Made by a program: the position numbers and the translations under genes. A DNA stretch of 63,405 nucleotides, filler included, from Chrysochromulina tobinii (Eukaryota), in NCBI GenBank assembly GCA_001275005.1. It is 7 parts of 7 records of this genome, joined end to end, with 100 filler letters (N's around TTAATTAATTAA, not from the genome) between each part and the next. Parts side by side here need not be neighbours in the genome. Positions count along the whole stretch, not along the records: positions 34,700 to 48,739 come from JWZX01000390.1; positions 48,840 to 59,246 come from JWZX01000391.1; 5 more parts are not named here. One strand, given 5' to 3'. The notes below the pieces were generated by a model. The model made no database searches. It was not told the DNA's origin and was given only the letters and a program-made list of their open reading frames with translations. Every line of letters begins with the position of its first letter. Within the stretch, counting starts at the first letter, position 1. Below are positions 10,846 through 59,148 of this stretch, piece after piece.

Positions 10846-10851
10846 CTGTGT

Positions 10852-34699: not shown

Positions 34700-35901
34700 C
34701 CCCCCTCCGCGCTTCCCCCCGCCCATCACCCCGGGTGGCGCCTACGTTCGCATCCTCACCGCCACCTTCCTCGTGGCCGACGGGCCGTTGGCCAATGCAA
34801 CCAGCGGCCGCCGGCTCCACGATCTCGATCTCGATCTCGATCTCGATCTCGATCTCGATCTCGTAACCGACGGGCCGTTGGCCAATGCAACCAGCGGCCG
34901 CCGGCTCCAAGCAGCCCTCGATCTCGAACGCTTACGGCTCAGCCTTTCCTTGTTACTCACTGGGGTCGAACCGCAACAAATCACGCTGACCTCCAGCGCC
35001 GTACCGGGCACCGACACATCCCTAGTCGTCGCACGGATCCGTCTGCCAATCGGTGCCAACACCACCGCGGCCGCGGCCACGATGTCGAGCCCCGTGTCCC
35101 TTGCGGCAATCTCATCCGTCCTCGGACTCACGGTATGCGGATGGCACTGATGAGCCATGCTTGCCTCTTGATGACATCTGATGACCCTTGATTGCCTCTT
35201 GATGACCTCTTGATGACCTCTTGATGACCTCTGATGGCCCCTACTCGTTTCGTGATGAACACTGATTGCCTCCCTCATCAGGTACAATCGGCCGGCGCGC
35301 CGTTCGCAGTGGTAGTGCTCATCCCGGCGCCCACGCAGCCGCCCACACCACCGCCCTCGCCGCCGCCGCGGCCGCCGCCCTCACCGCCGCCCTCACCGCC
35401 GCCGCCGTTGCCGGCGTGGCCGCCCAACGTCTCCCCGTCGCCACCAGCCGCGCTTCTCTTGCTCTCGCTGGACCAGGTACACTGATGAGCCATGATTGCC
35501 TCTTGATGACCTCTGATGGCCCCTAATTGCCTCCCTCATCGAGCGCTCACTGAACCAGGTCATCGGCGCTGTCGCGGTCGGTTTGGCCGTGGCCGTGGTG
35601 CTCGGGATGGCGCTCTGGCGCGTGCGATGGCGAGCGCGCCAGCAGGCGGCACAGGCTGAGAAGGCGGCGCGGGACGCGGTGCACTCTGCAGAGCGTGCCA
35701 CCGCGGAGCGGCGCGCAGCGGCCGAGCTCGGTCGAGCGCAGGTAGCCGGAGCGCTGCGGCGGGCGCGCGCCGTGCCGAGCGTTGACGGAGCAGAGGGCGA
35801 GGCGGACGACGAGAGCGATGAGGACAGTTGTGCGGTCGCCGCCACTGCTGCTGTGTCCGAAAAACCAGAGGCAGGGGCGACGGAGGCGACGGAGGCGACG
35901 G

Positions 35902-35962
<61 letters not shown>

Positions 35963-36269
35963 ATCAGACCATTGGACACCCACCATCCTTGAAAAGCCGG
36001 GAGCGGGTGTGCGTAAGGGGGTAGGTCAGACCCACCCCCTTCGTGAAAGAAGCCCGAGCGCCGTCCCGAGCGAGATAACGGCCGGCGCGGCGCGTGGCAT
36101 CATCGACGCTCGGTACGGCGCTCGAGGGATCAAGTTCATCGAGCGCCAACGCGTCATCGATCGTGAAGTCATCCACTATGTGGGAGACGAGGGCAACGCC
36201 ACCGCCATGGCGCTCGGTACGGCGCTCGCGGACAATGCCACCGCCACGGCGGACGGCTTCGGCGGCTAC

Positions 36270-36317
<48 letters not shown>

Positions 36318-37332
36318 AGTCTAAGCGCTGGGGGCAGTGGAAGCGCTGGGGGGCATGGACGGAGAATTCGGCGGACGTCAAAGGCGCGCGGCACTGCTCA
36401 GCCCCGAGGAGATTGAGGCGCTCGTACGCACAGCGATGCGGGATGAGATGCGACGAGCGAGGCGCTCCCCACACGCCACGCACGTTCCCCACACGCACGT
36501 CTCGTCGTCGAGGCGCTCAGCACGGCGCTCAACGCCCGAGCCCCGGACCTCGCCACCGCGCCATCCCCCACCCTCCTTGCGCCATCCCCCACCCTCCTTG
36601 CGCCATCCCCCACCCTCCTCGCCCTCGGGCCGCCAGCCCTTACGCTTGGGACGAAGCTCACGCGACGGCCACTATACCAAGGGCGCGCCGGGCACCTACA
36701 CCAGCCGAAGCGGCTCACACAGCCGAGATAACGTCCGAGATAACGACCGAGATAACGGCCGAGATAACGGACGAAGCGGCTCACACAGCCGCCCGCCGCC
36801 GAGCGACGCGCGCACGCGCCGTACTGAGCGCCTACGAGAGGAGCGCCGTACTGAGCATGGGCGAGGGGAGGTGGGCCGCACGCCCGGGCTCGATCAGCAC
36901 AATCCCTTTCTGCGGACCACCGACATGCCATCGGCTCTGCGGACTGCCAACATGCCCTCGGCACTGCGGACTGCCGACACGCCCTCGGCAGTCCGCAGTC
37001 CCTTCGTGCGGACTGCCGACACGCCCTCGGGGTCGCCCGGCGTGCAGCACAGCGGCGCATGCAACACCGCCGTGCCCGAGCGCCCCTTGCAGCCGTTACC
37101 AACGTCCGTCGAGAGCCCCTTGCGACCGTTCCCAACGGCCGTCGGCTCGCCTGCGGCCGTTGCAGCTGCGAGCATCGGGAGGCGCCCGGCGCCTCGGGTG
37201 CGGCGGTCACCCAACACAGGAGCATCTAGTCCATCCGTGCCCAACAGGGGCAGCAGGCTTAGGCATCAGGATAGTCACGATCGACGAGACAGAGGTCCAG
37301 CCACCGACCCGCCGCTGGTCGTTCGCGTGTAA
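34700..37332 (+). CDS. Single-pass membrane protein (5'-partial): Pro-rich stalk, TM helix, low-complexity cytoplasmic tail
   Basis: Exons ~34700-35132, 35282-35477 and 35559 onward; (S/P)PPP stalk; TM segment VIGAVAVGLAVAVVLGMALW. A frame discontinuity near the (GGC)n tract (~36270-36340) leaves the C-terminus uncertain (stop at 36416 or 37332). Confidence 0.55.
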
Positions 37333-37494
37333 GTTCACTCTTGAAAAGTACGCCTAGAAACCTTAGATGCTGAAACTCCTTCGCGCTTCGGCGCGATCGA
37401 TCATGGCGGTACCCGTGCCTTCGACCTTCGTGCCTTCGCGTGGCGGGGGGACCGCGACGAAACTGACTGACTGTGACTGTGAACACCGCCGGAA

Positions 37495-39725
37495 ATGTGG
37501 ACGGCCTTGCTCGTGGTCCGATCGCTAGCTGCTGTGTGCTTCACCATACCCCCAATTGTGCCCGATTGTGCTCCTTCGTGGGAGGCACTCAGCAAACGTG
37601 TGGCGGCCACATCCGTCGGGCAGAAGTTGCTCTCCGATGAGGGACAGCGTGCCGTGGGGCGAGGCCCTCCTCACACCGAGGCGACGCTTCGCCTCTTTGA
37701 CTCGGCCACTGAGTCCGATGTTCGAGTCACCTTCTTCCGCGACGACGCGGCCTGGTGCCCATACTGCCAGCGCTGCTGGCTCGTCCTCGAAGAGAAGCGC
37801 ATCCCGTACCGAGTGCGCAAGTTGCCGCTGAATGCCTACGGCTTGAAGCCGAGTTGGTTCACCAAGATGGTCGATGGTGGCAAGCTGCCTGCGGTGGAGC
37901 TCGACGGCAAGCTACACGTGGAGAGCCAGCACATCATCCGGCTCCTCGACGCCACCTTTCCTCAGTCGCCGCGCATGGTGCCCGCGCCCGGCAGCGCCGA
38001 CGAGGCTCGCACGGCCGACCTCCTCCGCTTGTCGAGCGAGATCGAGCGAGATTGGTTCTCGCTCGTCTTTTACCCGGTGGAGGAGGGCGAGGCGCTCGAG
38101 CGTGCGCAGGCGGCCCTCCTCGCCTCGCTGCGCCGACTCGACGACGCTCTCGCCTCCACGCCCGGAAGTTGGATGCTCGGTGGGGAGCACCTTTCGAACG
38201 CCGACGTGCAGTGGTGTGCATGCAAGTGCTCACCCCGGCGCCCTCCCCTCTCCCCACAGGTGGGGAGCACCCCTCGTACGCCGACGTGCAGATGATCACG
38301 ACCATCGAGCGGCTCGTGGCGAGTGTGCTCTATTGGAAGGGTCTGCACGTGCGCGCGTCGTCGATGGCGCCGGCGCGCTTTGCACACCTCGAGCGGTGGC
38401 TCGCTGCCTTCGAGGCGCGCCCATCCTACCTCGCGACCAAAGGTGATTGCCTCGGATGAGCTCTGAGAGCCTCTGATTGCCCATCTTACCTCGCGACCAA
38501 AGGTATCGCTCTGCTCCGATGGCCTCCCTCATCAGGTGATTACTACTCTCTCGTGATGGCGATGCCCTCCCAAAACGGGCCAGGCTACTCCTCCGCGGCA
38601 GCCAAGGCGGTAGCCTCACGCATCTATGGCATGGACGGCGAGTGGTCTCCGCACGCTCCAGGCCAGAGCCCCCACAGTCCAACGGTCGAGGGCGCCGTGG
38701 TGAGCGCTTGCATGCAAGGCAGGTCCAAGGCTCCAGGCCAGAGCCCCCCGAGTCCAACGGTCGAGGGCGCCGTGGTGAGCGCTTGCATGCAAGGCAGGTC
38801 CAAGGCTCCAGGCCAGAGCCCGCCGAGTCCAACGGTCGAGCCGCTCGCGCCACTCCATCTTGAGGGAGGTGTAACCGCCGCCTGTGATGGTGTAACCGCC
38901 GCCCTCACAGGTGTAACTGCCGCCCTCACCGGTGTAACCGCCGCCCTCACAGGTGTAACCGCCGCCCGTCACGAGGCCGCCTACCGGCTAATCACGAACC
39001 ATCAGCGCATCGTTCGTTTCGCCTCCCGGGGTGCGAGCGAGCCCTGATGAGCTTTGATTGCCTCCCTCATCAGGTCTGATGAGCTTTGATTGCCTCCCTC
39101 ATCAGGTGCGAGCGAGCCTGGGGTACCTTCCTTCCACGCGGAGCTCGCCGACCCGTAAGCGGCGCCTCGGATCGACCTCTGATGGCTTCCCTGATGGCCT
39201 CTGAATGACCTCGATTGACCTCGGATGGCCTCTGATGGCCTCTGATGGCCTCTGATGACCTCTGATGGCCTCTAATGGCCTCTGATGGCCTCTGATTGGC
39301 TCTGATGACCTATGATGGCCTCTGATGGACCTCTGATTGCCTCCCTCATCAGGTGCGCCGAGCCTCGGTTCGAGTTTGAGGCGCCGCTCGATGTCTGCCT
39401 GCGCCACGTGGCCGCCGCGCTGCTGGACGACGGCGGGCCTGTGGAAGAGGCCGCGAGATCGAATCTGCGAGGCGTTGCCGCGGGCGCGCCGCTCGTCGAC
39501 GACTGGAACGAGTACGAGGACGTCGACGGGCGGCCGTACTATTGGAACGAGCTCAACGGGAAGATGAGCTACACGCCCCCCACTCGGCAGCTCGATCATT
39601 GCCTCGCGTACCTGCGCGATCGGGTGGGCGTCCCTCGGGACCTATCGCCCGCCGCAGCGCTCGCACTGCGCAGACAGCTGAACGCGATGATCGAGCTCGT
39701 GTGTGACGGTGGGAGGGTTGGATAG
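37495..39725 (+). CDS. Glutathione S-transferase (Cys-type, CPYC; algal omega/lambda/DHAR-like) with a WW-like insert; N-terminal signal peptide
   Basis: RDDAAWCPYCQRCWLVLEEKRIPY...KP.WF...GKLPAVELDG...ES; ERLVASVLYWKG; GDYYS..M..P.Q.G; ELADP. Exons 37495-38179, 38260-38442, 38536-~39029, 39106-39154 and 39353-39725. Confidence 0.88.
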
Positions 39726-39759
39726 AGGCCCCGAGCAAAAATGACCGAACGAAATTGAT

Positions 39760-42672: not shown

Positions 42673-43818
42673 TAACCGCGGTGCCGCCCACACCATGCCG
42701 CGACGACCCCAGATAGCAGCCACCATACCAAGGGCGCGCCGGCCACCTACACCAGCCGACGTGGAGCCGCCTTCCAGCCGAGATGCAGGGAGGGGAGATG
42801 GGAGTGATTGCCGCAGATGTGCACAGGGGTTCCTCGTGCTGTAAGCCCTCCGAGAATCGAACTCAGATAGACCCTCGCCGCGCGCGCGCCCACATCGCCC
42901 TCCCGCGCGCCCCCCCATCCTCCGCCCGGCGAGGCGGCCGCGTCGTGCCGCCACGCCGTGCGGCCCACGCCCTGCGTGCGGCCCGGCGCCGGCGTGGCGA
43001 GCCCGCGCTGCCGCGACTCTCACGCCCGCTCGTGCGCGTGGCGTCCTCGCGTGTGGCGGCGCAGGTCCGGTCTGAGTGTGGGAAGGGAAGGAGTTGCGCG
43101 GATGGCGCCATGCCATGGGCCCCCCCCGGGAGTCTTTACCTGCATCTGTGCCGTGTGGAGCAAGGGTGGCAGCCGCCGCGCTCAGGCGGCCGCCGACGCT
43201 GGCCCAGATGGTGCAGGTGACGACGGCTGACGACAGCATATAAGAGTATAATATGAGAGCGATGAGCCATCAGCCAATACGATAACATGACAGAGCGATT
43301 GAGCCAATAACATGAAAGAGCATCGCATCGTCGGGACCGACGAAGAATGCTTGGAGTGCCGGGTCACCCGAGATAGACCGTATACCTGTACTTCTGCGCT
43401 GTGGGTATCTCTGTCGTCTGTGTGCCCGTCGTCACTTCGCTAGTTCGCTGTCTGTGTGCGGGGTCCGGAAATAGCGAAAACAAAACGGCCTTGGCGTCAC
43501 AGGTCGGGACTATTTTTCCGCGATCATTGTCAATCTTATCTCTCAACACTCAACTGAACGGGTACTAGGGCCGTAACCCCGTATTCTAACCACACCCGTC
43601 GAAGCCATGATTAGCGGTGCGCGGAGTGGCGCCCATTCCAGAGGCAACGCCGCTCACGACGAAGGACAGCACCCGCCCGCCGTCTGCCGACTTCTCTTCT
43701 CAGCTCACTTCCAGCGCTCCGATGCCGGCTGAGTGCACCTCTGACTGTGCCTGATTGCAGCTCACTTCCAGCGCTCCGATGCCGGCTGAGTGCACCTCTG
43801 ATTGCGCCTGATTGCAGC

Positions 43819-46800
43819 TCACTTCCAGCGCTCCGATGCCGCCTGAGTGGCGGCCGCCTGGCCGCGCTGGATCAGATACTCCTTGAGCAGAGAGGAGTTG
43901 GCCGGGGTGCTGGGTAGCGGCGGGGCGCCCCCCTCCCGCGCCTCCCTCGATCTGGAGAGCTCCGTGGGGGCGCCGAGCTGGGCGCCGCCCTGGATCACGA
44001 GGGTGTGTGCATCGGGCGGGGGCCCAAAGGACGGGTGCGTCGCAGGCTGTCCACTCAGCTCGGCGGCCTTTCGGAACGGGTTGCCCCTGTGCACCCGCCC
44101 AGTGAACGCATGCCCTCCGGTGCCATTCGTGCCATTCGTGCCCGAGCGCGCCCCACCCGTCCCACCCGCCACACCCGCCGCACCCGCCGTACTCGGACGG
44201 ACGCGAGCTGGAGCCGTGCTGGGCGCCGAGCGGCTCAGGGGACGGCTCAGAGGTTCGACACTCAGCAGCTCGCCGAGATTGGCATCGAGATTCGTGTCGA
44301 GATTCTCGTCGCTCAGCAGCATGCCGCCGACGCCGCCGGCCGCGGTCGGTGCGCCAACCGGCGTGCAACCACGCGCCGTCGTGAGCGCATACGAGCCCGC
44401 GGTCGAGCGTTGTCTTGGGCGCGGCAACGGCTCGTCGGGATGGTGGCGGCGGCGTGGGGCCGTCGCGGCCGTCGCCCAACATGGCGCGGGTACCTCGGCC
44501 GGCGGCGGCTCTGGAGGCGGGTAGAGGGCTTGCTGCGAATACGCTTGCTGCTTGTACGCTTGCTGCGCGTAATACGTCTGCACGGCTGGCGAGGAGAGCG
44601 CCTGCTGCGAGTCAGGGTACATCAGGTGCTGTCCGTGGTACATCGGGTGCAGTCCGGGGTGCGTTGGCTGCGGCGGTGAGCAGCCGGCGTACCCCTGCGC
44701 GTCGCCCAACACAGCGCGCGCGTGCGCCTCAGCCTCTGGCGACGTGTGCTCGTCGGTCCAGTGAGGCTGCGCTGTGTTGGGCGCGTGGCTGAGCGAGGGC
44801 ATGGGCGAAGGCGTGGGCAGCGCTGTGTTGGGCAACGGCTGCGCTCCGGCGACGCCGAGCTCATCGGCAGATGGCATCTCCCGCGATCTCGCGTGCTCCA
44901 ACGGCCGATCGTACCGCGGTCGAGCGCCGTCCCGAGCGCCGTCCCTGCCGAGCGAGGCGCCGTACCGAGCACCACCCCCGCCCACGACGGTCGAGCGCTC
45001 CGGCTCGGCAGGGTCGGCGCTCGTTACGGCGCCCACGCTCGGTACGGCGCTCAGCCCGCCGATGCGTAGGCAGGCGCACGCGTGCCTCGCCGCCTCGACG
45101 GCCTCATGCAGGGCCTCGTTCTCGCTCTGCAGCCGCTCGAGCCGCTTCTCATCCTCCTCGGCCAGCCGACCGCTCCCCTCCGCATCGGCCGGGTGGACGC
45201 CGTCCCGAGCATCAGCGCCGTCCCGAGCACCAGCGCCGTCCCGAGCGTGTAGCACGATCGCTGCGCCGGCGCTGACCGACTCGCTGTGCACGAGCGTCCT
45301 CTCAGACAAGGCCATCGCCTCCTCCGCCGTCGCCATGGCCTTCGACGCCGTCGCCATCGCGTCGCCGGCGCCCGCCTCCCCCTGTGGAAACGGCGCCTCC
45401 CCCTGTGGAAACGGCCACGGACGCACTGCGTCAGCCTCCGCGGCGGCAGCGAGCCCGGCCCGCACCGCCGCGGCCGCCTCCATTTTGGCACGCACGCTCG
45501 AGCCCGCGCTGTGAAGCATCTTGTTCACACGCTCCATGGCCTGGGCCTTGGTCCGGTGCCTGAGGAGCTCGCCTGTCTGCGACGAGAGCTTGTCGCGTCA
45601 GATGCAATCCAGTGGCAATCAGATGTAATCAAGGGGCCATCAGTGGCCCTCACCTGCTTCGATAGCTTGTCGCGCAGCTCGTTGCGCTCGCGCTCGAGGG
45701 CAGCGTTCTTAGCCGCCAAGGCCGCGAGGCCATCGCTCAGCCCTCGCATCTCGCCCATCGCGAGATCGCGCCGGCGCTCGTATGCGGCGGCCTCGCGCCG
45801 CCACGGGCGCCCCGCCTCCTTGGCCCAGCTGGTGCTCACGCCGAGCACAATCACGAGCACCTGCTTCATCCGATGCAATCCAGTGGCAATCAGATTTAAT
45901 CCAGTGGCAATCCGATGCAATCAAGTGGCCGAGCACAATCACGAGCACCTGCTTCAAGAGCGTTCATCAGATGCAATCCAGTGGCAATCAGATGCAATCA
46001 TGTGGCCATCAGATGCAATCAAGTGGACGAGCACCTCGCCAGCGTCCATCGCGGGGAAGCTGCTGCCACCGCCGGCGCCGTCCTGGGCGCTCTCGACGCT
46101 GGTCAGGTAGGTGCGCCTGAGGTCGAGCGCGCACACGGGTGGGAAGACCGCATCGGCGCGGCTCTCGTACTGCGACAACCACGAGATGTCGGCCGCCCGG
46201 TCGACGGCGCTTTGCTCGAGCTGCAGCACGGTCTGCGCGCCCGCGACGACGCTCGCAAAGCTCATCGCATGCTGCCGACTGCTGGTGCAGGCAAGCACGC
46301 CCCACTCGACGCCCGCGACGGCGCCCGCCAACGCGGCACCTCCGCTGCCGCTGCTCGTCAACGGGGCGGCGGTGGCGCCGCCGCTCACCGGCAAGGGCGT
46401 CGTGCCGGGCGTGACGAGGGGATGGGACGGTGCCGCGCTGTGTTGGGCGGCGCCTGGCGTCGGCAGGCCAGCGGCAGGCGGCGCGCGGTACAAGGGTGTC
46501 GAGGCCTCCGCGATGCGCCCGAGTTTGCCCAGGCACGCCGCGAGCGTGTGCAGCGTCGCCGGGTACGCGTTCGCGCGGTTGGTGACCTCAAACGCGCGCG
46601 CGAGCTCAGCGGCCGCGCGGCCGAAGCGCGCGGCCGCATACTCGCCCAAGACGGCGCGTCGCTCGTCGGCGGGCAGCTTGGCGAGGCGCGCCGTGCCGAG
46701 CGCGCGCAGCGCCACGTTGTACTTGGCCTGCAGATGCAATCAGATGCAGTCAGGTGCAGTCAGATGCAGTCAGATGCAATCAGATGCAATCAGCTGCAGT

Positions 46801-48739
46801 CAGATGCAGTCAGCTGCACTCAGAGGCACTCAGAGGCACTCAGATGCACTCAGAGGCACTCAGCTGCATTCAGATGCAATCATCTGCACTCAGCTGCACT
46901 CAGCTGCACTCAGACGCAAAAAGCTGCACTCAGAGGCAATCAGCTGCACTCAGTGGCACCTCGCCGCACGGTCCTGTGAAGAGGCGCGCCGCTGTGAACT
47001 CTGCGTCGCTCAGGTTGGACTCGCCGAGTTTTCGTAACCGCACGCCCACGCGCTTGCGCCCCGCGACGAAGCGCTCAGCACGGCGCGCGAGCGGTTCGCG
47101 CGGGAGCCACGCGCCCTTGGGGGCGTGCCCCGTCGCCTGATGAGGGAGGTCATCAGTGGTCATCAGAGGTCATCAGGGGTCATCATCATCATTGGGGGCG
47201 TGCCCCGTCGCCTGATCGATGGTGGCGGTGGTCATCAGTGGTCATCAGTGGTCATCAGTGGTCATCAGTGGTCATCAGTGGTCATCAGTGGCCATCAGTG
47301 GTCATCAGTGGTCATCAGTGGCCATCAGTGGTCCTCAGTGGTCATCAGTGGTCATCAGTGGTCATCAGTGGCCACACGCCTGATCAATGGTGGCGATGGG
47401 TCGGTACGTCTCCGTCGGCCAAGCTCCCGGCATCAGGCCCAGGCGCTCGCGCGCCGTGTCGAGCGCCTCGCGGTCCGCCTCCGTCGCGCCTCCGTCGATG
47501 CCCCCCTCCATGGTCGGGTCCACCACGAACCACCACTCCACACACGAGGTCGTGTGCACGCCATACGTGCCCGCGAACACGAGATGCGCATCTGGCCCGC
47601 TCGTGTGTTCATGCCGCATCGCCTCGAGGGTCAATACGCCTTCCTCGAGGCCTCCTACGAGCCCGTGGAGCCCGCTGAAAAAGTCCGACGGCCCACCGAG
47701 CACTGAGGCACGCCCGAGGCGCTCGAAGCTCTCCGCCTCAAACTCGCGCGCTGGAACGAAGCGCTTGCGGGGGCGCGCGCGCGTCAGATGGGACTGTGGA
47801 GGCGCCGTGCCGGGCTCGGCCGTTGAGCCGCTGACCTCTTCGGCCACAGACTGCTGTGAAGGCTGCTGTGAAGGCTGGTGTGAAGGCTGCTGTGAAGACG
47901 GCTCCGAGATCGGCTCCGTGGGCTCCTCAGCCGACGAGGCCTCGGCCGCCCCGGCGCCCGGCACGGCGCCCGGCACGGCGCCCGGCACGGCGCCCGGCAC
48001 GGCGCGTTGGCGCGCCGCTCGTTCCGCCAGAGCGTGTGCGCGCGCCTCGGCCTGCCCATGCAGCAGCTGGGCGCGTGCCACCACGCGCTGCGCCACCAGC
48101 CCGAGCAGGTCGTCGCCTGCGCCTCCCTCGGTGAGCATGCTCTTGACGAGCGCGCGCGCCGTGCTGAGCGCCCCCTCGTGCGCGAGCGCGCCGCCGCCGC
48201 TTGCGAGCGCGCCGCCGCCGCTTGCGAGCGCGCCGCTGCCGCTTGCGAGCGCGCCGAGTTCTCTCACGAACTCCCTCTCGAGCGCACACAGCTGCGCCTC
48301 GGCCTTGGCAGGCGCCGGATCGAGCGCGAGGCGCTTCGAGCTGCGCTGGAGATACCGGCGCACGCTCAGCCGATCGCGAAGCAGCGCGGTGAGCTCGAGG
48401 CCCTCCAGCCAAGCACCGAGCTGCCACCGCGCCGGCGAAGCGGCGGCGACCTCGAGCGCAGTCTCGCCAACGTAGTCCGACACGGCTCGGAGCTCCGCCT
48501 CGGCCGCGGCCGTCGCCCGGCTGACGGCGGCGGTCAGAGACGCCTCCAGTGCCTCCGAGCGCGCTCCGCGGCCGAGCTCGGCGCGCAGCCGCGCCACCTC
48601 TGCGTCGCGCTCGCGCAGCTTCTCCTCGCTCGCGTGCAGCCTGTCCTTGGTCTCGCGCATCTGCCTAGAGAGCAGCGACTTATCGGAGCGCGCCAGAATC
48701 TCCGACAGCTGCTCCTCTTCGACTTCCGGCCTCTTTGGC
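43819..48739 (-). CDS. Large coiled-coil protein (5'-partial) with a degenerate mono-ADP-ribosyltransferase-like domain
   Basis: Exons ~48739-47380, 47137-46960, 46727-46035, 45860-45654 and ~45576-43819. Motifs DFFSGL..LVG..EAMRHEH...TT...EWWFV, AARLFTGP..KYNVALR, LYRAP, GVEWGVLACTS and VDRAADISWLSQY.....VFPP. Confidence 0.75.
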
Positions 48740-48839: not shown

Positions 48840-50545
48840 TGCCGATGAGCCTCTGCTCTCCAAAGCCGTCCGTCGCCGCCGTAAGCTCGGCGAGGGTGAG
48901 GGCGACGGCCGCAGGCGGCGCCGAGGGTGCCTCCGGGGTCTCCGATGCAGGCGCCGCTTCTGCGGATGCTGAGCCTGCGGCAGGCGGCGACTGTGTGACC
49001 TCGAGCAGCGACAGCTTCGACAGGTTGGCTTGCATCTCCATCTCCACCGCGTGCTTGCGACGCAGCATCTGGCTCTCCTGCTTGCGCTTCTTTTGGAAGC
49101 GCTCGCGCATCGCCCTCGCCTCCGCCAACACATCCTCGCTTGCGAGTGCGTGGTGCTCCTCGATCGCCCGGACCAGGCCCTCGAACTGCGCGGCCGCCAT
49201 GGCCACACGCAGCGCCTCGTTGGCGGCGGCAGAAGGAGCAGGAGGACACACGACGTCCTCGTCGCCAGCCGCCGCCGACACCTCGCTGTCCGCCTCGGCG
49301 CGGCCACTCGCGGCCGCTGACGCACTCGCTACCGGCGCTCTCGCCTCGCTCGCCCCAGCCTGCTTGGCTTTGGCTTTCTTGCTCGCTTTCTTCGTGTGCG
49401 CCTGCTGCTTGTGCGCAGCCTCTGCCTCCTCCTCAGCCAGCAGAGCCGCAGCGGCAAGCTCGGCTGCCCGCTCGGCTGCCGCACGCAGGAATCTTGCGAT
49501 GACGGTGTGGCCTCGGGCCTCTGCGACATCGAGGGCTGTGCCCGCAGCGCATCGCAAGTCGGTGCGTGCGCTAGCAAGCACGAGCAGCTTGACTATGTCG
49601 CCGTGCCCTTTGTTGCAGGCGTGGTGCAGAGGCGTGCGGCCGTTGCTGCCTGCCTGGTCGACGGCGGCGTGGGCGGCGAGCAGCAGCCGCACGCAGTCGC
49701 CGTGGCCATCGATACAGGCGTAGATCAGAGGCGTGTTGCCGTTGCGGCCTGGCTGTTCGACGACGGCGTGGGCGGCGAGCAGCAGCTGTACGCAGCCGCA
49801 GTCGGCCTTCGATGCAGGCGGCGATCAGAGGCGTGAGGCCGTTGCTGTCTGCCTGGTCGACGGCGGCGTGGGCGGCGAGCAGCAGCTGCACGCAGCCGCC
49901 GTGGTCTTTATAGCAGGCGGCGAACAGAGGCGTGGTACCGTTGCTGGATGCCTTGTTGACGGCGGCGTGGGCGGCGAGCAGCAGCTGCACGCAGTCGCCG
50001 TGGTCTTTATTGCAGGCGGCGTACAGAGGCGTGCGGCCGTTGCTGTTTGCCTGGTCGACGGCGGCGTGGGCGGCGAGCAGCAGCTGCACGCAGCCGCCGT
50101 GGCCTTCGTTGCAGGCGGCGATCAGAGGCGTGAAGCCGTTGCTGTCTGCCTGGTCGACGGCGGCGTGGGCGGCGAGCAGCAGCTGCACGCAGCCGCCGTG
50201 GTCTTTATAGCAGGCGGCGTACAGAGGCGTGGTGCCGTCACTGGCTGCCTGGTCGACGGCGGCGTGGGCGCCGAGCAGCAGCTGCACGCAGTCGCCGTGG
50301 CCTTTGTCGCAGGCGGCGTACAGAGGCGTGGAGCCGTTGCTGTTTGCCTGGTCGACGGCGGCGTGGGCAGCGAGCAGCAGCCTCGTGCACTTAGGGTGAC
50401 CAGTCTCACATGCACGAAGCAGGCAAAGGCCGAGGTCGGCCGCTCCTGTCACCCTGTCGATGAAGCCCACGGCCTTGGCCTCGTCGCCGCGACGGAGCGC
50501 GTCGAACATCGCGTCGACCGCCTCGGCGCTGCCACTCGCGGCCAT
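48840..50545 (-). CDS. Ankyrin-repeat protein followed by the start of an IRAK/Pelle-type kinase; one frameshift near 49804; 3'-truncated
   Basis: About 9-10 near-identical 33-aa ankyrin repeats (G.TPL..AC..GHG.CVQLLL.A.A.VDQA). The repeat register resumes in another frame after ACIEG. Ends LTLAELTAATDGFGEQRLIG at the contig edge. Confidence 0.85.
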
Positions 50546-50851
50546 GGCGAGGGATTTCACAAGTTGATTTCACACCCAGTTTCCGTGTGAAGAGACTGTC
50601 TCAGCTAAACTGTATAACACGAGCAAGGTGCGTATCTTTATTGTAGGGGGTACGCGCTACCGGTTAAGTTTGGCGGTGAGTTTGGAGACAGTTTGCCTCT
50701 CCGTTCTTTCTTGTCTGTCCGACCTGTCGTCCGACTGTCATGCCGACCAAGTTGCTGACCTGACCAGTTTTTTCGTCGCACACGACAGTATCTCGATTTT
50801 TTAAACAACCTCGTAAAAAACTTCCGCAGCGGTTTTGTGATTATCGCGGCG

Positions 50852-53517
50852 TCAGAAGCATGGCGAGCGCGAGCGGCAGCCGCGCCACCGCCGGAGCCAC
50901 CGCCTCAGCGGCGAGAGCGCCCGCAACGGCGCCCGCATCACCGGCGGCGACGTGCGCACCACCGGCGGCGCCGAAGCCTTCGACGAGACCTGACGAAACC
51001 GGACGTCGTGGCGACGAAGCGCCGCGTTGAAGGCGAGGAGATTCTCGGGCCACTCTGGACGTCCCCCAACGGCATCCCTACCGGCCTGGAGGGCTCCTGC
51101 GGTCTCCCAACGGCCCGCCCTCTGGCAAGCGGCGATGGCGACGTTGTAGGTGGTTACGTCCGGGCTCACGCCCGACGCACGCATCTGCTCGAGCAATCAG
51201 GCGCAATCAATCGCAATCAATCGCAATCAATCGCAATCAGTCGCAATCAATCGCAATCAATCGCAATCAGGCGTACCTGCTGGAGCAACCCAATCGCAAT
51301 CAGTCGCAATCAGTCGCATTCAGTCGCACCTGCTGGAGCAACCCAATCGCAATCAGTCGCAATCAGTCGCAATCAGTCGCACCTGCTGGAGCAACCCAAT
51401 CGCAATCAGTCGCAATCAGTCGCATTCAGTCGCACCTGCTGGAGCAACCCAATCGCAATCAGTCGCAATCAGTCGCAATCAGTCGCAATCAGTCGCAATC
51501 AGGCGCACCTGCTGGAGCAACCCAATCGTTTGCTCCCACCGGCCACCCTTTTCGAGAGCAGCGAGGGCGGCGTTGTACGTGATCGTGTTGGGCGCGACGC
51601 CGACCTGCATGCAATCAGACACGCAGAGGAATGTGCAGAGGCACTCAGCGGCAATCAATGTCTCATCAGAGGCACTCAAGCGCAATCATGGTCTCATCAG
51701 AGGCACTCAGAGCACCGTCCGATGTCAATCAGTCGCAATCAGTCGCAATCACCTGGCGCATCTGCTCGAGGAGGGCATTCAATCGCAATCAATCGCAATC
51801 AGTCGCAATCAGTCGCAATCACCTGGCGCATCTGCTCGAGGAGGGCATTCAATCGCAATCAATCGCAATCAGTCGCAATCAGTCGCAATCACCTGGCGCA
51901 TCTGCTCGAGGAGGGCGAGCGCCTCGTTCCACAGCCCGCCCTTGGCACACGCCGCAACGGCAGCACTGAAGCTGATCACATTCGGGCTCACGCCCCGAGC
52001 TCGCATCTCCCGCAGGAGATCGAGAGCTCGCGTGAGCTCGCCGCCCTTTTCACACGCCGAGATCGCGGACGAGTATGAATATACGTCGGGCGTCACCCCC
52101 GCAGATCGCATCTCGTCAAGCAGCCCGTGCGCCTGCATCCAGCGGCGGTCATCAGCGGTCATCAGTGGCAATCAGTGGCACTCAGCGCACCTGCACCACG
52201 TGGCAGAGGGTCATCAGCGGCCATCAGTGCTCATAAGATTGCACTCAATGGCAATCAGCGGCACTCAGCGCACCTGCTGCCACTCGCCGCTGCCCTCGCA
52301 CGCGGCAATCGCCGCATTGTAGCTGTACACGTCAGGCCTGATCCCTGTCGACTTCATCGTCTTCAGCAGCGCGAGTGCCCTCGCGCTCTCACCTGATGAG
52401 GGATGCAATCAGCATGCAATCACGCTCTCACCTGATGAGGGAGGCAATCAGCATGCAATCAGGGAGGTCTCACCTCCTTTAGCAAGCGCCGAGAGCGCCG
52501 AGTTGAACGTAATCACGTCCGGTGCGACCCCGGCAGTACGCATCTCATTAAGTAAGCTGAGTGCACGCTGCCACTCTTGCGCCTTGGCGCACCTGATGAG
52601 GGAGGCCATCAGCATGCAATCAGCATGCAATCAGCAGTCACTCAGCGACGCTCAACGGCAATCTGATGAGTGAGGTAATCAGCATGCAATCAGCATGCAT
52701 GCACGCACGCGGAGATGGCCGAGTTGAAGCTGACCACATTAGGGACATGGCTGATGAGTGAGGTAATCAGCATGCATGCATGCACGCACGCGGAGATGGC
52801 CGAGTTGAAGCTGACCACATTAGGGACGATGTTACACGAGCGCATCGCAACGAGAAGCGAGACAGCTCTCTCCCACTCGGCGGCCTTGGCACATGCGGCG
52901 ATTGCGCTGTTGAACGAGATCACATCTGGCTGCACGCCCGCCTTGGGCATCGTCATCAGCAGCTGCATCGCACGCTCCCACAAGCCGGCCTTGGCGAGCG
53001 CTGACAGGGCGCTGTTGAAGGTGATCGTGTTGGCGTTCAGGCCCGCCGCGCGCATCTCATCGACCAGCCGGAGCGCGCGCTCCCACGCGCCGCCCTTGGC
53101 ACACGCCGAGATCGCCGAGTTGAAGCTGACCTCGTTCGGAGGCACGCCGGCCGCCCGCATCGCGTCAAGGAGCGCCAACGCCTCCTCCCACCGTCCGGCC
53201 TTTTCGCACGCGGCGATGGCCGCGCTGTAGCTGAAGACGTCGGGATCGACTCCGGCCGATTTCATCTCGTCGAGCAGCCCAATAGCGCGCTTCCAGTCCC
53301 GCGAACGGCCGTACGCGCTGATGCCCATGCTAAACTCCTTGACATTCTGCGGCTGGTGCTCGGCGAGCAGCCGCTCAATGTTGGCGCTGCCGTGCGCAAG
53401 CTTGAGGTCACTCTGGTAGAGCTGCCGTCGGGCGCGGTTTGCGTCAAGGGAATCGTGGACCCGTGGGCCGGGTGAGCTCGCGAGAGCGAGCGCATAGCAA
53501 GAGGCAGCTAAGAGCAT
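50852..53517 (-). CDS. Pentatricopeptide repeat (PPR) protein with an N-terminal signal peptide (probably plastid-targeted)
   Basis: More than ten 35-aa repeats P(D/N)V.S(F/Y)NSAISAC.K.G.WE.AL.LL.EM...GV over ~6 exons separated by GCAATCA-rich introns; N-terminus MLLAASCYALALA. Confidence 0.92.
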
Positions 53518-53722
53518 GTTTTTCCAATCAATCTCGTCGATCTGCCGCGACAGCGCGTTTCGTCACAGACATGAACGACATGAACGGAAAGTTCTTAACA
53601 TACCGAGGTGCTGCGTCCTGTGCCCGTGCTCTCCTGTGCTCGCTCATTCCACTTAAGGTTCATCTTCAGTGCATCTTCTCGCAGCCGATGGCGCGATGTT
53701 CATCTGCTGTTGGCGATGTTCA

Positions 53723-53873
53723 TCAGCCGATGGCGATGTTGAACATCTCCTCTAGGTCGAGATCGTCATCATCGATGGCACCCGCGTCGGTCTCCTCGCC
53801 ATATCCACCCTCATAGTAGCGATTGTCTTCCTCATAGCCATCCTCATAGGCGCCCTCGCCGTTGTCGTCCTCA

Positions 53874-53927
<54 letters not shown>

Positions 53928-56900
53928 TCATATTGCGGCTCGTATAGCGGATTGAAGTCGGCGATGAGCTCGTTCACCACGGGCTCGGTGACGGGCCAGT
54001 GCGAGGCACCCTCCTCGTTTTGGTAAAAGTAGAGCTGCGAACCCTTTTCAGGCCACCAGTACTTGTCACCGGCGCCGGCGCCGGTTCGGCGGTGCTGCAG
54101 GCCCATGAGGTAGGCATGCTGCTTCGCGGGCACGTTGGCCACGTGGCGTCGCCATGGCTCGCACGCATGCACGCACGTCGCGAGGTGATCCGAGTGATCC
54201 ATATCCATATCCGGGATGACGACCACGAACGACATCGGGCCGTCCGCCTATCGGAACGCCGCCGCAATCAGGGAGGTTATTAGCGAGGACATCAGTGAGG
54301 CCATCATCAGAGAGGCCATCAGTGAGGCCATCATCAGTGAGGCCATCAGCGCACCTGTCGGAACAGCGCCGCAATGTGCTGATGAGGGACGCAATCAGAG
54401 GTCATCAGAGGCCATCAGCGCACCTGTCGGAACAGCGCCGCAATGTGCAGAAAGCATGCACACACCGAGGCCTTGTCGAAGGGGGGATTCGCTTCGAAGG
54501 ATCCGGAGCGCGGCCGGAAGGACTGAAACGGCCCGACCGCCCCAAAGTAACGGTCGGAGTCGAACCAAGCCGAGCAGTACATTCCGCACCCAAAGTGCTT
54601 GTAGCGGTTGAGCGGTGAGGCGTAGCATTCGAAATCGACGCCGAGGCACCGCTGAGGCGGGGGAGAGGAGGCATTATGAGATGCGCAGAGGCGTCATCAG
54701 AGGCACACCGCACCTGGAGCGTTGCCATCAGAGGCGTCATCAGAGGCGTCATCAGAGGCGCAGAGGCGTCATCAGAGGCACTCCGCACCTGGAGCGTCGC
54801 CATCAAGCGCCGTGGCAGCGCCGCTTGATTGGCACTCTTGTCCATCGAGATCGCATCGTACCTGATGAGGGAGGCAATCAGCATGCACTCAAATGGCCGC
54901 CTGATTGGCACTCTCGTCCATCGAGATCGCATCGAGAGCGCATCTCGTACCGGTACGCCATCGCGAAGAGGCGCGTCAGCATCAGGCTCTCATCGTGCCC
55001 ACCGGAGATGTACATCTCGCGAAGGTCGTCGAAATGCGAGCTCCACATCTCCACCGTGTGCTCCTCCACCTCATCACTGGCGCTGCCCTCGCCGCCACCC
55101 TTGCCGCCGCCCTTGCCGCCGCCCTTGCCGCCGCCGCCCTTGCCCACGCCGCCCTTGCCGCCGCCCAAGCCGCCGCCGCCGATGCCCACCGGTCGGTAGA
55201 CGATCTGCACGGACTCGGGATCCGTTGGGTGAGGGCTCATCAGGGGTAATCAGTGGGTCATCAGGGGTAATTAGTGGGTCATCTGGGGTAATTAGTGGGT
55301 CATCAAGGGTAATTACCTGCACGGACTCGGGATCCGTTGGGTGAGGGCGCTTGAAGACGCCCAGCTGTCTGTCGCCGAGCGTCACGCCGCGATGAGAGAT
55401 GGCCTTTTTCCAGTGCTCCTGGAGCCCCTGGGCGTTCTCAAGCAGATCCGAGGCCGCCTTGGTGGCAAACTTGGAGAGACCCTCAGCCAATTCGTACCTG
55501 ATGAGGGAGGCAATCAGCATGCAATCGGAGGCCGCCCTGGAGTCAAGCTGGGTGTCCCTCTCATACCAGAAGCCGTCATCGTTGGACTCGCGCTGTGGGA
55601 AGTTGGCGCGGTACGTGCTCTTCAGTTGCGACGCCAGCCATCGAACGACGAGCGAGTCTGTGGGCGACGGAAGGGCTCATCAGGGCTCATCAGGGCTCAT
55701 CAGGGCTCATCAGGGCTCATCAGGGCTCATCAGGGCTCATCAGGGCTCATCAGGGCTCATCAGGGCTCATCAGGGGTAATCAGTGGAGGCACACCTGTAC
55801 GTGAGGGAATGACCGGCTCGAGTGGGCACGCGCTATGTGCGGAGGCGTCCGGGTCGGTATTGGCGACCACCACGAAAAAGATCCACTTCGAAATGATGTC
55901 CCATGCAAGCTTGCGCTCCAAATAAGGCAACCGGCGCACCGCGTCCGCCGCGCGCGCGCCGGACGCGGCACCATAGCGTACAGACGAGGGAGGTGGACGC
56001 GCCGAGAGCCCGCCCGAGGCCGAGGCGGGGCTGCCGACGGCATGGATGCGCTGCTCCACGTGGCAGAGGGTCATCAGCGGTCATCAGTGGCAATCAGTGG
56101 CAATCAGTGGCAATGAGGGGCAATCAGCGGCAATCAGCGCACCTGCACCACGTGGCAGAGGGTCATCAGCGGTCATCAGTGGCAATCAGCGGCAATCAGC
56201 GCACCTGCACCACGTGGCAGAGAGCGTCGTAACGGTCGACGGCGCTGCCCGGGAGTTCGAGCCCGTACCTGATGAGGAAGGCCATCAGAGAGGCCATCAG
56301 AGGCCATCAGAGAGGCCATCAGGGAACTCGAGCACATACACAGCCTCCAGTGGCAATCAGTGGCAATCAGTGGCAATCAGTGGCAATCAGTGGCAATCAG
56401 TGGCAATCAATGGCAATCAGAGAACTCGAGCACATACACAGCCTCCTGGCTCGCCGCGGACAGCTGATGAGGGAGACAATCAGCATGCAATCAGCATGCA
56501 ATCAGCAGGCAATCAGGGAGCATACACAGCCTCCTGGCTAGCCGCGGACAGCAGGTCCTCAACTGCCGGCCCAATCTCCTGCTCGAGCTGCTCGTGCAGC
56601 GCCGTGGTGGGCGTTGCGTGCGGCGGCGACAGCGTGAGCGTTGGAGGCACGAAGCTCCGCTCGGGCACAAAGTGCCCGTCGCGAAAGGTGAAGGGCCATA
56701 CCTGATGAGGGAGGCAATCATCATGCAATCGAGATGCGATCTCGGGCACAAAGCGCCCGTCGCGAGAGGTGAGGGGCCATACCCAGGCGCGTAACCACCC
56801 CTTCATCGCCTCCTGCTGCGCGGGCGCGCGGTAGCAACTGATGGCATCCGCGAACTTGGAGTTGGTGACGAGGATGGCGCGCCGTGCGATCGCGCAGTGG

Positions 56901-59148
56901 ACGAGGGGGGGCAGCTCGCGCGCATTCAAACCCTCGGGCGCGAATTCCGCAAGCTGCTCCTCGTGGATGAGCTTCCACAGCTCATTACGGCGCGAGATGA
57001 CGATCTCATCAGCCAGATTCGATCTGCCGCCCTCCATCCAGATACGTGGCACGAGGCAGGTCACGTTGTAGCCGCGGCTGAGCAGTTCCATCTGCGCTTG
57101 GCGCACCTGATGAGGGAGGCCATCAGCATGCAATCAGCATGCGATCAGCATGCCATCAGTATGCCATCAGCATGCAATCAGCAGTTCCATCTGCGCTTGG
57201 CGCACGGCGTTCAGATTGAGGAATCCCATCTCGAGCGGATTGTCGGCCGCTGCCACCGACGAGCAGTCGATGAGGATGGATGGGATCACCGCGGCCCGAG
57301 ATGGGATCTCCGCGGTCCGAGATGGGATCTGGATCTCCGCGGTCCGAGATGGCGCCGCCGCCGCCGCCGCTCTGGCCAAGGGCGCTGCCACGGGCGCCAT
57401 GGGCGCGAACGCGGGCGGCGTGTGCGATGCGAATGGGGGCAGCTGTGAATGTGAATGTGAATGGGAATGGGACATTATGTTCACGGCGGCGCTCGACAGG
57501 GCGGGCAGTGCCATGCCGAGCGGCGTCAGCAGCGTCGTGGCGGGCGTCGCGTCCACGGCGCCGGCACCAAAAGTCTCGTCATTGGCGCCATCGGCGTCCG
57601 CCTCGTCCGTCACTCTCAAGGCACCCTCCGGAGCGTTATCTCCCTGATCGAGCTCCGCATCTCCCTGATCGAGCTCCGCATCTCCCTGCTCGAGCTCCGC
57701 ATTCCACGTGGCCGCCGTGTAGCCTAAAATGGAAGCCGCGCGCTGCTCGACGGCCGTGAGCGTCGCCCACGCATGCATGCACGTCGGGGGTGCCTCGCCT
57801 CGGTCCCACGAGGTTTCGTCATAACCGAGCCACGCCGCGGCTCGTCGCTCGTCCCAGGTCAGATCTCCCCACAGGAGCCCATCGGGGCCCGCCGCACGCC
57901 CAGTTTCGTCATGTGCCCGCGGCAGCGCCGCCGCACGCCCAGTTTCGTCATGTGCCCACGGCAGCGCCGCCGCGGCGGATGCGGTTGGCGCCGGCGGTCG
58001 CGCCGAGGGCGGTGTCGACGGCGCCGTTGCGGGCGCCGCCGTAGCCACACGTAACGGTACCGGTACGGAGGCGAGGGCGGGTTCCCACAGCGCGCGATGG
58101 GGGCTCGTGGCGGCCCAGATGGCGGCGGGGTCATCGGGGCGTAGGGCAGGTAGGGCAGGTAGGGCAGGTAGGGCAGGTAGGGCGGGGAGCTCGTCGGGGG
58201 GTTGGGCATGGGTGCGCTGGTGCGTAGGCGGTGACGACGGCGACAGCGGATGGAGTGGCACTACGTTCGCGTCGTGCGCGAGGGTACCTGTGAATGAGGA
58301 AGGTGCTGTCAAGGAGGGACGAGGTGCGTCGAGCGCGCTGTGGCGAGCGCTGGTGACCCAAATAGGTTCTCATTGGCAATCAACGCACCCTTGCCACCCG
58401 GAGCGTCATCAGAACTCATCAGGAGTCATCAGTGGCCATCAACGCACCCTTGCCGCCAGGAGCGCCCAACTCCCGCAGGAACGTGGACGTCTCCACCGCG
58501 TTGAGCTTCCCAGCCTTGAGGTGCATCGTGTCTGGCAGCTTCCATTGCCGCACGGTACCCAGCCGGCACACACGCACCTGCGCAGGGAAGCCGGACGTTT
58601 CATGCGACCGGCGGGTAGTGGCGCTACTCCAAGCCGTAGGCTCGAGGTTCATCTGCGGCGCGTCGGTCGCGTAAAAGGGGCCGTACAGCACACGCCTGCT
58701 CGAGAGGAGGTGGGGGGCGCCGTGGTGAGCGCTTGCATGCAAGGCAGGTCCTCAGAGGCAATTGACGAACCTCGAGAAGTTGAGGAGGAAGAGCGGCGTG
58801 ACGGCCGGCTCGATGTCACGGCGTAGGGTCGGGAGTTGCCCGCCGTGCTCGCCAAAGAGGGCGCGCCGCATGCACTCGTCGTACCTGATGAGGGAGGCAA
58901 TCAGCATGCCGTCAGCTGCCCGCCGTGCTCGCTAAAAAGAGGGCGCGCCGCATGCACTCGTCGTACCTGATGAGGGAGGCAATCAGCATGCCATCAGCTG
59001 CCCGCCCGTGCTCGCAAAAAAGAGGGCGCGCCGCATGCTCTCGTCGTACGTTTGGCTCGAGCACATGAAGAGGAAGCCGAGTGAAGGCACCGAGGCCGCT
59101 ACGGCGGAGGACGAAGGGCCGCTGCCGCCGCCGCCGCCGCCGCCGCCG
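53723..59148 (-). CDS. Multidomain protein (5'-partial): DCD domain, W..L...E..AA..LGY..W repeats, NYN/Regnase-like PIN domain, and PCIF1/CAPAM-type N6-adenine methyltransferase
   Basis: About 14 exons chain in frame at GT-AG sites. DCD: GFLFMC...TYDEC..RALFG...PLFLLNF..RVLYGPFYA...NLEPTAW...FPAQVRV. NYN: ILIDCSSVA...LVP...ILVTNSKFAD...WPFTFRDGHFVP. MTase: YRY...QAALP...FECYASPLN...YCSAWFDSDRYFG..GPF..F.P.SGSFEANPPF (NPPF at 54489-54478)...MSFVVVIP...H.Y..GLQH...YQNEEGA..WP. Confidence 0.85.

What the first reader, a model, noticed from the sequence alone, without database searches (positions are those of the whole stretch)
35133..59050. Stereotyped 'exon-edge duplicate + microsatellite + conserved 3' cassette' introns: candidate intron-generating system
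Seen: roughly 20 introns or sub-units in unrelated genes end in (TGCATGC)TGATTGCCTCCCTCATCAG or close variants (+ strand 35263, ~38520, ~39055, ~39088, 39334; - strand ~47138, 52393, 52432, 52593, 54862, 55498, ~56269, 56702, 57107, 58885, 58967). They are filled with 7-10-nt ATCA-family microsatellites (GCAATCA, GGCCATCAGA, GTCATCAGTG, GGGCTCATCA). Most contain one or more slightly diverged 15-45-bp copies of the adjacent exon edge (38180 vs 38260; ~38420 vs ~38479; 45843 vs 45931; 51272-51525 x5; 51750-51916 x3; 52701 vs 52781; 55205 vs 55317; 56661 vs 56742; 57081 vs 57180; 58838/58918/59002). Established: introner elements create intron families with shared sequence and short TSDs in several algae. 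Inference: here the duplications are long, variable and reiterated, pointing to a slippage or template-switch mechanism that reuses exon sequence as splice sites together with a portable branch-point/acceptor cassette.
Basis: partly seen in the sequence, partly recalled or inferred. Interest (0 to 1): 0.8.

Follow-up and report, generated by a model that had tools for sequence, protein, structure and literature searches.

The report
Introns built from other introns' pieces
In this alga most introns carry a copy of the neighbouring exon's edge plus repeat filler shared with other introns, and they likely arose when DNA repair pasted part of an existing intron into an exon while duplicating the target, which would let introns multiply without a transposon.

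Summary
In detail: the 19-nt acceptor cassette occurs 20 times (0 expected by chance), and 24 of 32 curated introns hold a copy of their own exon edge. The copies have two polarities. Type A introns start with a copy of the downstream exon (supplying GT) and end in a carried cassette. Type B introns start with carried repeats and end in a copy of the upstream exon (supplying AG). Eight introns are spliced in RNA contigs. The five GST introns have no counterpart at the same sites in homologous loci (best 55% identity). Filler is shared with nearby introns, and one PPR intron carries 18 bases of the neighbouring gene's exon. Intron-family sequence with a target duplication also sits antisense inside an exon, unspliced and in frame. 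Best reading (0.55): microhomology-guided template switching copies part of a donor intron into an exon and duplicates a short, variable stretch of target (copies of 5-51 bp). An RNA-templated version is the main rival (0.22). It works like an introner but lacks a fixed target duplication and whole-length family identity. No presence/absence polymorphism was found, and internal repeat counts are insecure.

The parts
18846..19013 (-). Intron, short type A (8/9-nt copy of downstream exon start); 29-bp repeat filler; carried end
   Evidence: not RNA-tested
19649..19780 (-). Intron, decayed type A; shares repeat words with 18846
   Evidence: not RNA-tested
28270..28450 (-). Intron in Rieske-domain gene; CTGAT filler, no clear exon copy
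   Evidence: ORF open after removal; Pfam
35133..35281 (+). Intron with cassette 1, no clear exon copy; filler shared with 35477
35477..35558 (+). Intron, decayed type B (21/30); interior like 35133
38180..38259 (+). GST intron 1, type A (29/32 copy) with cassette 2
   Evidence: spliced junction as loose end in X15; position open in homologues
38443..38535 (+). GST intron 2, composite: 6-nt downstream copy, internal 24-nt upstream copy, cassette 1
   Evidence: RNA joint GT..AG in X12, X15
38655..38840 (+). Unspliced in-frame exon insertion: 36-bp target copy plus 39-bp antisense piece of cassette 2, two units (three in L061)
   Evidence: RNA contigs run into it from both sides; 37/37 identical to intron 58696; 78 residues vs 10-55 in 47 homologues
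38869..38952 (+). GST intron 3, type A array of 21-bp units
   Evidence: RNA joint in X12
39031..39105 (+). GST intron 4, type A (13/13), cassette 1 twice
   Evidence: RNA joint in X12, X15
39155..39352 (+). GST intron 5, decayed type A (16/21), 10-bp microsatellite, cassette 1
   Evidence: RNA joint in X12, X15
43701..43849 (+). Wrong-way insertion over the stop codon and 3' end of a minus-strand gene: 27-bp target copy plus 30-bp intron-type repeats, twice
   Evidence: not RNA-tested
45577..45653 (-). Intron, type B (18/21); filler like 45861
45861..46034 (-). Intron, type A start plus internal 21-nt copy of downstream exon
46728..46959 (-). Intron, microsatellite only, no clear copy
47137..47379 (-). 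Composite intron (GC donor) holding a 20+20-nt copy of the intron-free exon junction, then cassette 1
   Evidence: frame continuity; not RNA-tested
51185..51508 (-). PPR intron, type B with reiterated exon-end + intron-start units
51605..51892 (-). PPR intron with two internal 24-nt upstream copies; filler like 51185
52133..52273 (-). PPR intron that is largely a copy of intron 56051 and carries 18/18 nt of that gene's exon end
52393..52473 (-). PPR intron, short type A, cassette 1 twice
52593..52789 (-). PPR intron, internal 38-nt upstream copy, three cassette copies
54248..54423 (-). PCIF1-domain gene intron, type B (18/21) plus internal 28-nt copy; 69-bp sub-unit missing in one DNA contig
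54652..54788 (-). Intron with internal 17-nt upstream copy
54862..54950 (-). Intron, type A (39-nt copy), cassette 1
55205..55316 (-). Intron, type B (32/32); filler like 55658
55498..55566 (-). Intron, decayed type A, cassette 1
55658..55794 (-). Intron, decayed type B (11/15)
56051..56204 (-). Intron, type B (17/18); donor of 52133
   Evidence: RNA contig lengths fit exact removal
56269..56525 (-). Composite intron with a junction-spanning copy and two cassettes
56702..56782 (-). Intron, type A (39/42), cassette 1
57107..57205 (-). Intron, type A (26/26), cassette 1
   Evidence: ORF continuity
58288..58447 (-). Intron with internal 17-nt upstream copy
58696..58770 (-). Intron with cassette 2; matches the antisense exon insert at 38655
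58885..59049 (-). Intron, type A, two 51-nt copies each followed by cassette 1

Best explanation
These are spliceosomal introns of a haptophyte alga that carry a copy of the adjacent exon edge and filler shared with other introns, and they were likely created by DNA repair synthesis that switches template to another, often nearby, intron and returns slightly upstream in the target exon. Inferred steps: (1) a nascent strand in an exon pairs by 3-6 nt of microhomology with the CTGAT repeat filler or a splice junction of a donor intron; (2) it copies the donor's 3' part (type A), 5' part (type B), nearly all of it (52133) or only filler; (3) it rejoins the target a short, variable distance upstream and so duplicates exon sequence (copies of 5-51 bp); (4) if the duplicate offers GT (A) or CAG (B) and the piece lies sense, splicing removes it cleanly, with branch-point-like CTGAT words supplied by the filler; wrong-way pieces survive only in frame or beyond the stop codon; (5) the direct repeats then invite unequal exchange, giving the reiterated sub-units, and the intronic copy decays neutrally. 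Each new intron would be a new donor. Shown: anatomy, splicing of eight introns, absence of five positions in homologues, intron-to-intron copying, wrong-way insertions. Inferred: the repair pathway, DNA as template, use of the branch words, and that copying (not an earlier event) created each intron.
For: Own-flank copies in 24 of 32 introns, 16 in exact register with a splice site; 0 of 5 AT-rich control introns show one. Introns with a carried 3' end are followed by GT in 16 of 17 and lack an upstream AG in 12 of 17; the other 15 have upstream AG in 13 and downstream GT in 5 (Fisher p=0.0005 and 0.0016). Five GST positions show no intron-sized break in 72 of 73 fully covering loci, including genomic contigs in the window's own clade (L006, L012, L043, L049, L053; quick tree). 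Five PPR introns lie at five different motif positions. Intron 52133 copies intron 56051 with 18/18 nt of its exon end. The most similar intron is one of the two nearest for 9 of 32 (null 2.0, p=0.002). Antisense cassette-2 piece with 36-bp target copy retained in RNA and absent from 47 homologues. Junction microhomology 52 nt over 14 junctions vs 17.7+/-4.0. Differences in copies are 9 synonymous and 20 non-synonymous, as for neutral decay (p=0.39). Same anatomy in L019, L061 and, with unrelated filler, in L051/L052.
Against: No presence/absence polymorphism: L019 vs L020 (98.2% identical over 11.5 kb) differ only in repeat number. Closest orthologues are only about 55% identical, so the gains are not dated, and the search kept the best 80 of 436 candidates, which favours intron-free loci. 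Only one gene was tested for position novelty. 8 of 32 introns show no significant copy. Overall similarity-distance correlation is weak (rho -0.12, p=0.03 at k=12; p=0.26 at k=10). Of the 52 nt of microhomology, 12 come from the non-independent 56051/52133 pair, 7 of 21 junctions could not be scored, and the null ignores chance extension of alignments. The 18-nt passenger also lies inside the donor intron, so an RNA template is not excluded, and the copy may have converted an older intron instead of creating one. The GT/CAG bias could be selection for splicing alone.
Confidence: 0.55

Rival explanations
1. RNA-templated insertion: a LINE-type reverse transcriptase or a repair polymerase copies excised intron RNA or nascent pre-mRNA at a staggered nick. 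Priming at the intron's 3' end with 5' truncation would give type A; internal priming in the repeats with run-off to the 5' end would give type B; the staggered nick gives the variable duplication.
For: Carried ends coincide with intron ends; variable-length duplications and microsatellite-guided priming are features of non-LTR retroposition (general knowledge; PMC6007223 abstract); orientation would be random, fitting the antisense inserts; the passenger could come from inside the donor intron.
Against: Excess of nearest-neighbour donors fits copying in cis better than a diffusible RNA; no poly(A) tails seen; no reverse transcriptase found in the three ORFs scanned, though the genome was not available to search; the antisense insert is an internal piece with neither splice site.
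Confidence: 0.22
2. Old introns remodelled in place: microsatellite expansion, tandem duplication across exon-intron edges, deletions and gene conversion between introns produce the pattern without new intron positions.
For: The genome is full of short tandem duplications (210 TRF rows); internal reiterations are plainly of this kind; unit counts vary between assemblies; 52133 could be conversion.
Against: Does not give introns that begin at base 1 with the downstream exon after a non-AG exon end without an exact deletion each time; GST positions are not shared; intron-free junction copies lie inside introns (47137, 56269); exonic antisense inserts have no intron at all.
Confidence: 0.13
3. 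A decayed MITE-type introner with termini CTGATGAG...CTCATCAG seeded the cassette; the long copies are secondary.
For: At 39044-39073 a 30-nt unit has an 8-bp terminal inverted repeat (sequence); introners with 4-bp duplications are reported for a Chrysochromulina sp. assembly.
Against: No fixed duplication length (5-51 bp); no whole-length family identity; two cassette families and a third filler in L051 behave alike.
Confidence: 0.07
4. Assembly artefact of short reads in repeats.
For: Unit numbers differ between assemblies; all data are short-read contigs.
Against: Copies carry their own substitutions; two other assemblies and a DNA contig agree; RNA splices exactly at the predicted ends.
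Confidence: 0.03

Closest known systems
TIR-DNA introners/ILEs of Symbiodinium, Polarella glacialis, Aureococcus, Micromonas and Chrysochromulina sp. (bioRxiv 10.1101/2020.10.14.339549, first two of four parts read; bioRxiv 10.1101/2022.06.06.494994, passages; PMC12130899 and PMC11282704, passages)
   Same: One splice site carried, the other recruited from a target duplication; GT/GH conserved just downstream of the acceptor; many introns share sequence.
   Different: Their duplications are fixed at 3-8 nt and the element is a whole-length family; here copies are 5-51 bp, variable, and the insert is a part of any donor intron, mostly microsatellite. The 2022 pipeline requires similarity to both ends and filters low-complexity families, so it would likely miss these.
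Intron gain by staggered double-strand-break repair in Daphnia pulex (PMC4202315, passages; review PMC3443670, passages)
   Same: Direct repeat of the adjacent exon end at the opposite intron end; internal direct repeats in young introns.
   Different: Daphnia repeats are 4-12 bp; the passages read name no intron-derived, shared filler. Here filler traces to other introns and brings a ready splice site.
Tandem genomic duplication (AGGT model; potato RdRp case PMC4974935, abstract; review)
   Same: Exon duplication supplies a splice site; in potato a parental intron's 3' part supplies the rest; the L061 array takes both sites from a duplicated AG|GT.
   Different: No foreign filler in the classical model; single events, in cis with the parental intron. 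Here the filler comes from another intron and the process recurs in most introns.
Intron transposition / fungal introner-like elements and stwintron sister introns (PMC3443670 and PMC8469720, passages)
   Same: Introns copied to new positions, proposed as a by-product of break repair; intron 52133 resembles this.
   Different: Those integrate whole and seamlessly with no flanking duplication; here partial copies with long duplications dominate.
10-11-bp intronic tandem repeats of Emiliania huxleyi (recalled; searches did not return the paper)
   Same: Haptophyte introns filled with about 10-bp repeats.
   Different: As recalled, no link to exon-edge copies or intron creation was made; not checked here.

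Membership tests
TIR-DNA (MITE-type) introner | Fixed short target-site duplication (3-8 nt) per family | tested here: not met
   Copies of 5-51 bp with the same cassette
TIR-DNA (MITE-type) introner | Similarity between family members reaching both intron ends | tested here: not met
   After masking the cassette the best pair shares 0.61 of 12-mers, most under 0.4
TIR-DNA (MITE-type) introner | Terminal inverted repeats | tested here: inconclusive
   8-bp inverted repeat in the unit at 39044 by eye; not surveyed across introns
TIR-DNA (MITE-type) introner | One splice site carried, the other co-opted from the duplication | tested here: met
TIR-DNA (MITE-type) introner | Lineage-specific intron positions | tested here: met
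   Five GST positions; one gene only
TIR-DNA (MITE-type) introner | Autonomous transposase partner | not testable with these tools
   No genome held
Non-LTR (SINE-like) retroposed introner | Variable-length duplication with microhomology at one end | tested here: met
   (with the caveats given)
Non-LTR (SINE-like) retroposed introner | One element polarity with a constant tail, and a LINE partner sharing the 3' end | tested here: inconclusive
   Types A and B keep opposite ends fixed, unlike one SINE; partner not searchable; no Rfam match in 35000-63405
Double-strand-break-repair intron gain (Daphnia type) | Exon-end direct repeat at the opposite intron end | tested here: met
   16 of 32 in exact register
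Double-strand-break-repair intron gain (Daphnia type) | Segregating intron-free alleles | tested here: inconclusive
   None in 11.5 kb of L019 vs L020; too little sequence
Tandem genomic duplication (AGGT model) | Intron made only of duplicated exon sequence, both sites from AG|GT | tested here: not met
   Foreign filler between copies; 12 of 17 carried-end introns lack upstream AG; 38869 and the L061 array come closest

The most novel reading that the evidence does not exclude
The intron population itself is the mobile entity: with no element and no dedicated enzyme, break repair copies halves of existing introns into exons, the shared branch-point-like microsatellite acts as the landing strip for template switching, and every product is a new donor. 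This self-seeding process would be the main source of introns in Chrysochromulina-like haptophytes, would also write intron sequence into proteins when it lands the wrong way, and would be invisible to published introner screens.
Probability: 0.4. Interest if true: 0.87.

Novelty: new variant of a known kind. Interest (0 to 1): 0.74.

Why it matters
How new spliceosomal introns arise is a long-standing question, and recent surveys credit transposons. Here most introns in a stretch of genome keep a readable record of their origin: target duplication, donor intron, junction microhomology and failed wrong-way products, across a range of ages. If confirmed genome-wide it gives a transposon-free, self-propagating route to intron gain, a possible origin for the repeat-filled introns of haptophytes, and an alga in which intron birth could be counted between strains or caught in mutation-accumulation lines.

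Tried and rejected
No whole genome was held and the metagenome records could not be extended, so there is no genome-wide count. The cassette had 0 matches in viral contigs and 5 single matches in prokaryote genomes, about what chance gives (not used). The first read-laying was swamped by cassette matches from other loci; only its piece table and loose ends were used. I first read 38662-38811 as a GC-AG intron; RNA contigs run into it from both sides, so I rejected that. A possible intron at 58578 was rejected because RNA pieces cross it. Depth over cassette bins (thousands vs about 35 in X7) suggests many genomic copies but the tool says it is no copy number, so I did not use it as one. A scan of 22 loci for exact 12-bp-seeded repeats at splice signals found the footprint only in L019 and L051 among other organisms' loci (L020's hits were a different tandem repeat); introns of L043/L053 are filled with CCCTAA-type repeats and have no exon copy, so the process is not universal in relatives. 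No Rfam family and no Pfam match for three candidate element ORFs. The tree is the quick one; the careful search did not finish. Ten literature searches returned no description of this anatomy in haptophytes; most subscription papers are not in the library, and I read no supplements (the introner family tables of the 2022 and 2025 surveys could list a related family).
Full report
Host and setting. The window is eukaryotic, 63.7% GC, with a GST, a PPR gene, a PCIF1-domain gene and a Rieske gene (Pfam). The same cassette occurs in loci L019-L021, whose GST groups in the tree with P0034, whose 90% cluster holds a Chrysochromulina tobinii protein. L021 and the window's own locus L060 share a record prefix. 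I infer a Chrysochromulina-like haptophyte. No whole genome was held.

Observation. The 19-nt cassette has 20 matches at up to 2 mismatches against none in 100 shuffles. I curated 32 introns by eye; removing them opens the GST, PPR, PCIF1-domain and Rieske frames. RNA contigs show GT..AG joints for four GST introns and a junction loose end for the fifth. One RNA contig's coordinates fit exact removal of 56702-56782, 56269-56525 and 56051-56204. So 8 of 32 are RNA-supported; the others rest on frame or on splice signals. 24 of 32 introns hold an own-flank copy above the 99th percentile of a mismatched-flank null; 16 are in exact register with a splice site. Five AT-rich introns in a separate element at 10973-12619 have none. 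Two other assemblies agree with the window over 34700-42600 but for one base and one 75-bp unit; one DNA contig lacks a 69-bp internal unit, so unit counts are insecure.

Anatomy. Type A begins with the downstream exon's first bases and ends in a carried cassette; type B begins with carried repeats and ends in the upstream exon's last bases. Of 17 introns with a carried 3' end, 16 are followed by GT and 12 lack an upstream AG; of the other 15, 13 have upstream AG and 5 downstream GT. Composite introns at 47137 and 56269 contain a copy of the intron-free junction. Filler is sense-strand CTGAT repeats, matching the YTRAY branch consensus (general knowledge); 26 of 32 introns have two or more such words. 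Differences between copy and exon are 9 synonymous and 20 non-synonymous over 708 sites, as expected for neutral decay; copies within one intron are not independent. Copies range from identical to about 20-30% diverged, which suggests a continuing process.

Are the positions new? For the GST, 77 loci were kept from 436 candidates. Two are the window's organism. Of the other 75, 73 cover all five sites and 2 only the first. None has an intron-sized break at sites 1, 2, 4 or 5 (largest insert 7 residues). Site 3 lies in a variable loop: five loci align poorly there and distant L073 has a 22-residue in-frame insert that I did not examine. Many loci are near-duplicates, short ones may be transcripts, and the ranking favours intron-free genes. 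Genomic contigs in the window's clade (L006, L012, L043, L049, L053) lack all five (quick tree). L051/L052 have an intron about 7-10 nt from site 3, in another phase, and it is itself a perfect type B with a 29-nt copy and unrelated filler. The five PPR introns lie at motif positions 9, 14, 19, 29 and 26, which fits separate gains after motif amplification.

Where does the filler come from? The best match of an intron is one of its two nearest neighbours for 9 of 32 (null 2.0; p=0.002); the overall correlation with distance is weak and not significant at k=10. PPR intron 52133 is largely a copy of intron 56051, 3.9 kb away in another gene, and carries 18 of 18 bases of that gene's exon end, which fixes the direction. 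That stretch also lies inside the donor intron. In L061, beyond the window, an array takes both sites from a duplicated AG|GT and shares filler with the next intron.

Wrong-way products. At 38655-38840 a 39-bp antisense piece of cassette 2, 37/37 identical to intron 58696, sits between 36-bp target copies. RNA contigs run into it from both sides, it is in frame, and the segment is 78 residues against 10-55 in 47 homologues. A similar antisense insert with a 27-bp copy spans a stop codon at 43701-43849. These show insertion with duplication where no intron exists.

Mechanism. Junctions between copy and filler show 52 nt of overlap with other introns' filler over 14 scorable junctions of 21, against 17.7+/-4.0; 12 nt come from one non-independent pair and the null is somewhat low. 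I take microhomology-guided template switching during repair as most likely (0.55), an RNA-templated version as the main rival (0.22), then remodelling of old introns (0.13), a decayed MITE (0.07) and artefact (0.03). About 0.75 rests on 'new introns made from pieces of other introns with a target duplication', whichever the template.

Comparison. It works like the introners of Symbiodinium and Polarella, which carry one site and recruit the other from a 3-8-nt duplication (first half of the text), but fails two membership features. Daphnia neointrons have 4-12-bp exon repeats (passages). The 2022 introner survey filters microsatellite-rich families and requires both-end similarity (passages). 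Ten searches found no account of this anatomy in haptophytes; supplements were not read.

Verdict. A real, well-supported pattern of lineage-specific intron creation with a traceable filler; a new variant of known intron-gain routes, with a fair chance of being a distinct self-seeding process. The missing proof is an intron-free allele and a genome-wide count.

Noticed in passing
window 9230-13540: AT-rich element with ATGAT/ATCAT repeats at both ends and an intron-split ORF whose last exon has a Cys/His motif that recalls Mutator-type transposases (from memory; no Pfam match). Its introns have their own repeat filler and no exon copies.
   Followed up: partly
window 8208-8830: About 14 copies of a 41-bp palindromic unit (GTCGATGACGG...CCGTCATCGAC), like a subterminal array of a transposon.
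   Followed up: no
window 60165-63405: Repeated CTGATCAG palindromes at 60165-60530, a 539-codon open frame (60760-62379) with no Pfam match, and a roughly 180-bp tandem repeat to the window end; probably a mobile element.
   Followed up: partly
window 335-3911: One long coding region with many 18-42-bp tandem duplications, nearly all multiples of three; the 30-bp unit at 2966-3090 holds 13 nt antisense to the cassette-2 acceptor end.
   Followed up: no
window 34779-34909: A roughly 41-bp direct repeat around a CGATCT microsatellite, about 90 bp in all and without splice signals on the plus strand; possibly another in-frame insertion.
   Followed up: no
L043 9780-10000; L053 1225-1405: GST introns of other algae filled with telomere-like CCCTAA/CCCCAA repeats, no exon copy.
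   Followed up: partly
L051 3014-3107; L052 2239-2333: Perfect type B intron with a 29-nt exon copy and unrelated filler in another organism.
   Followed up: yes
window 59165-59250 vs 51915-52000: A piece of the PPR gene is repeated next to a scaffold gap; likely an assembly join.
   Followed up: no
window 42600-43244 vs L060/L061: The window and the two other assemblies diverge here (43 substitutions) and then part; a repeat copy, another allele or a misjoin.
   Followed up: no
window 52133-52592: PPR internal exons are 119, 119, 240 and 96 bp, a near-regular spacing that might reflect nucleosome-linked insertion.
   Followed up: no
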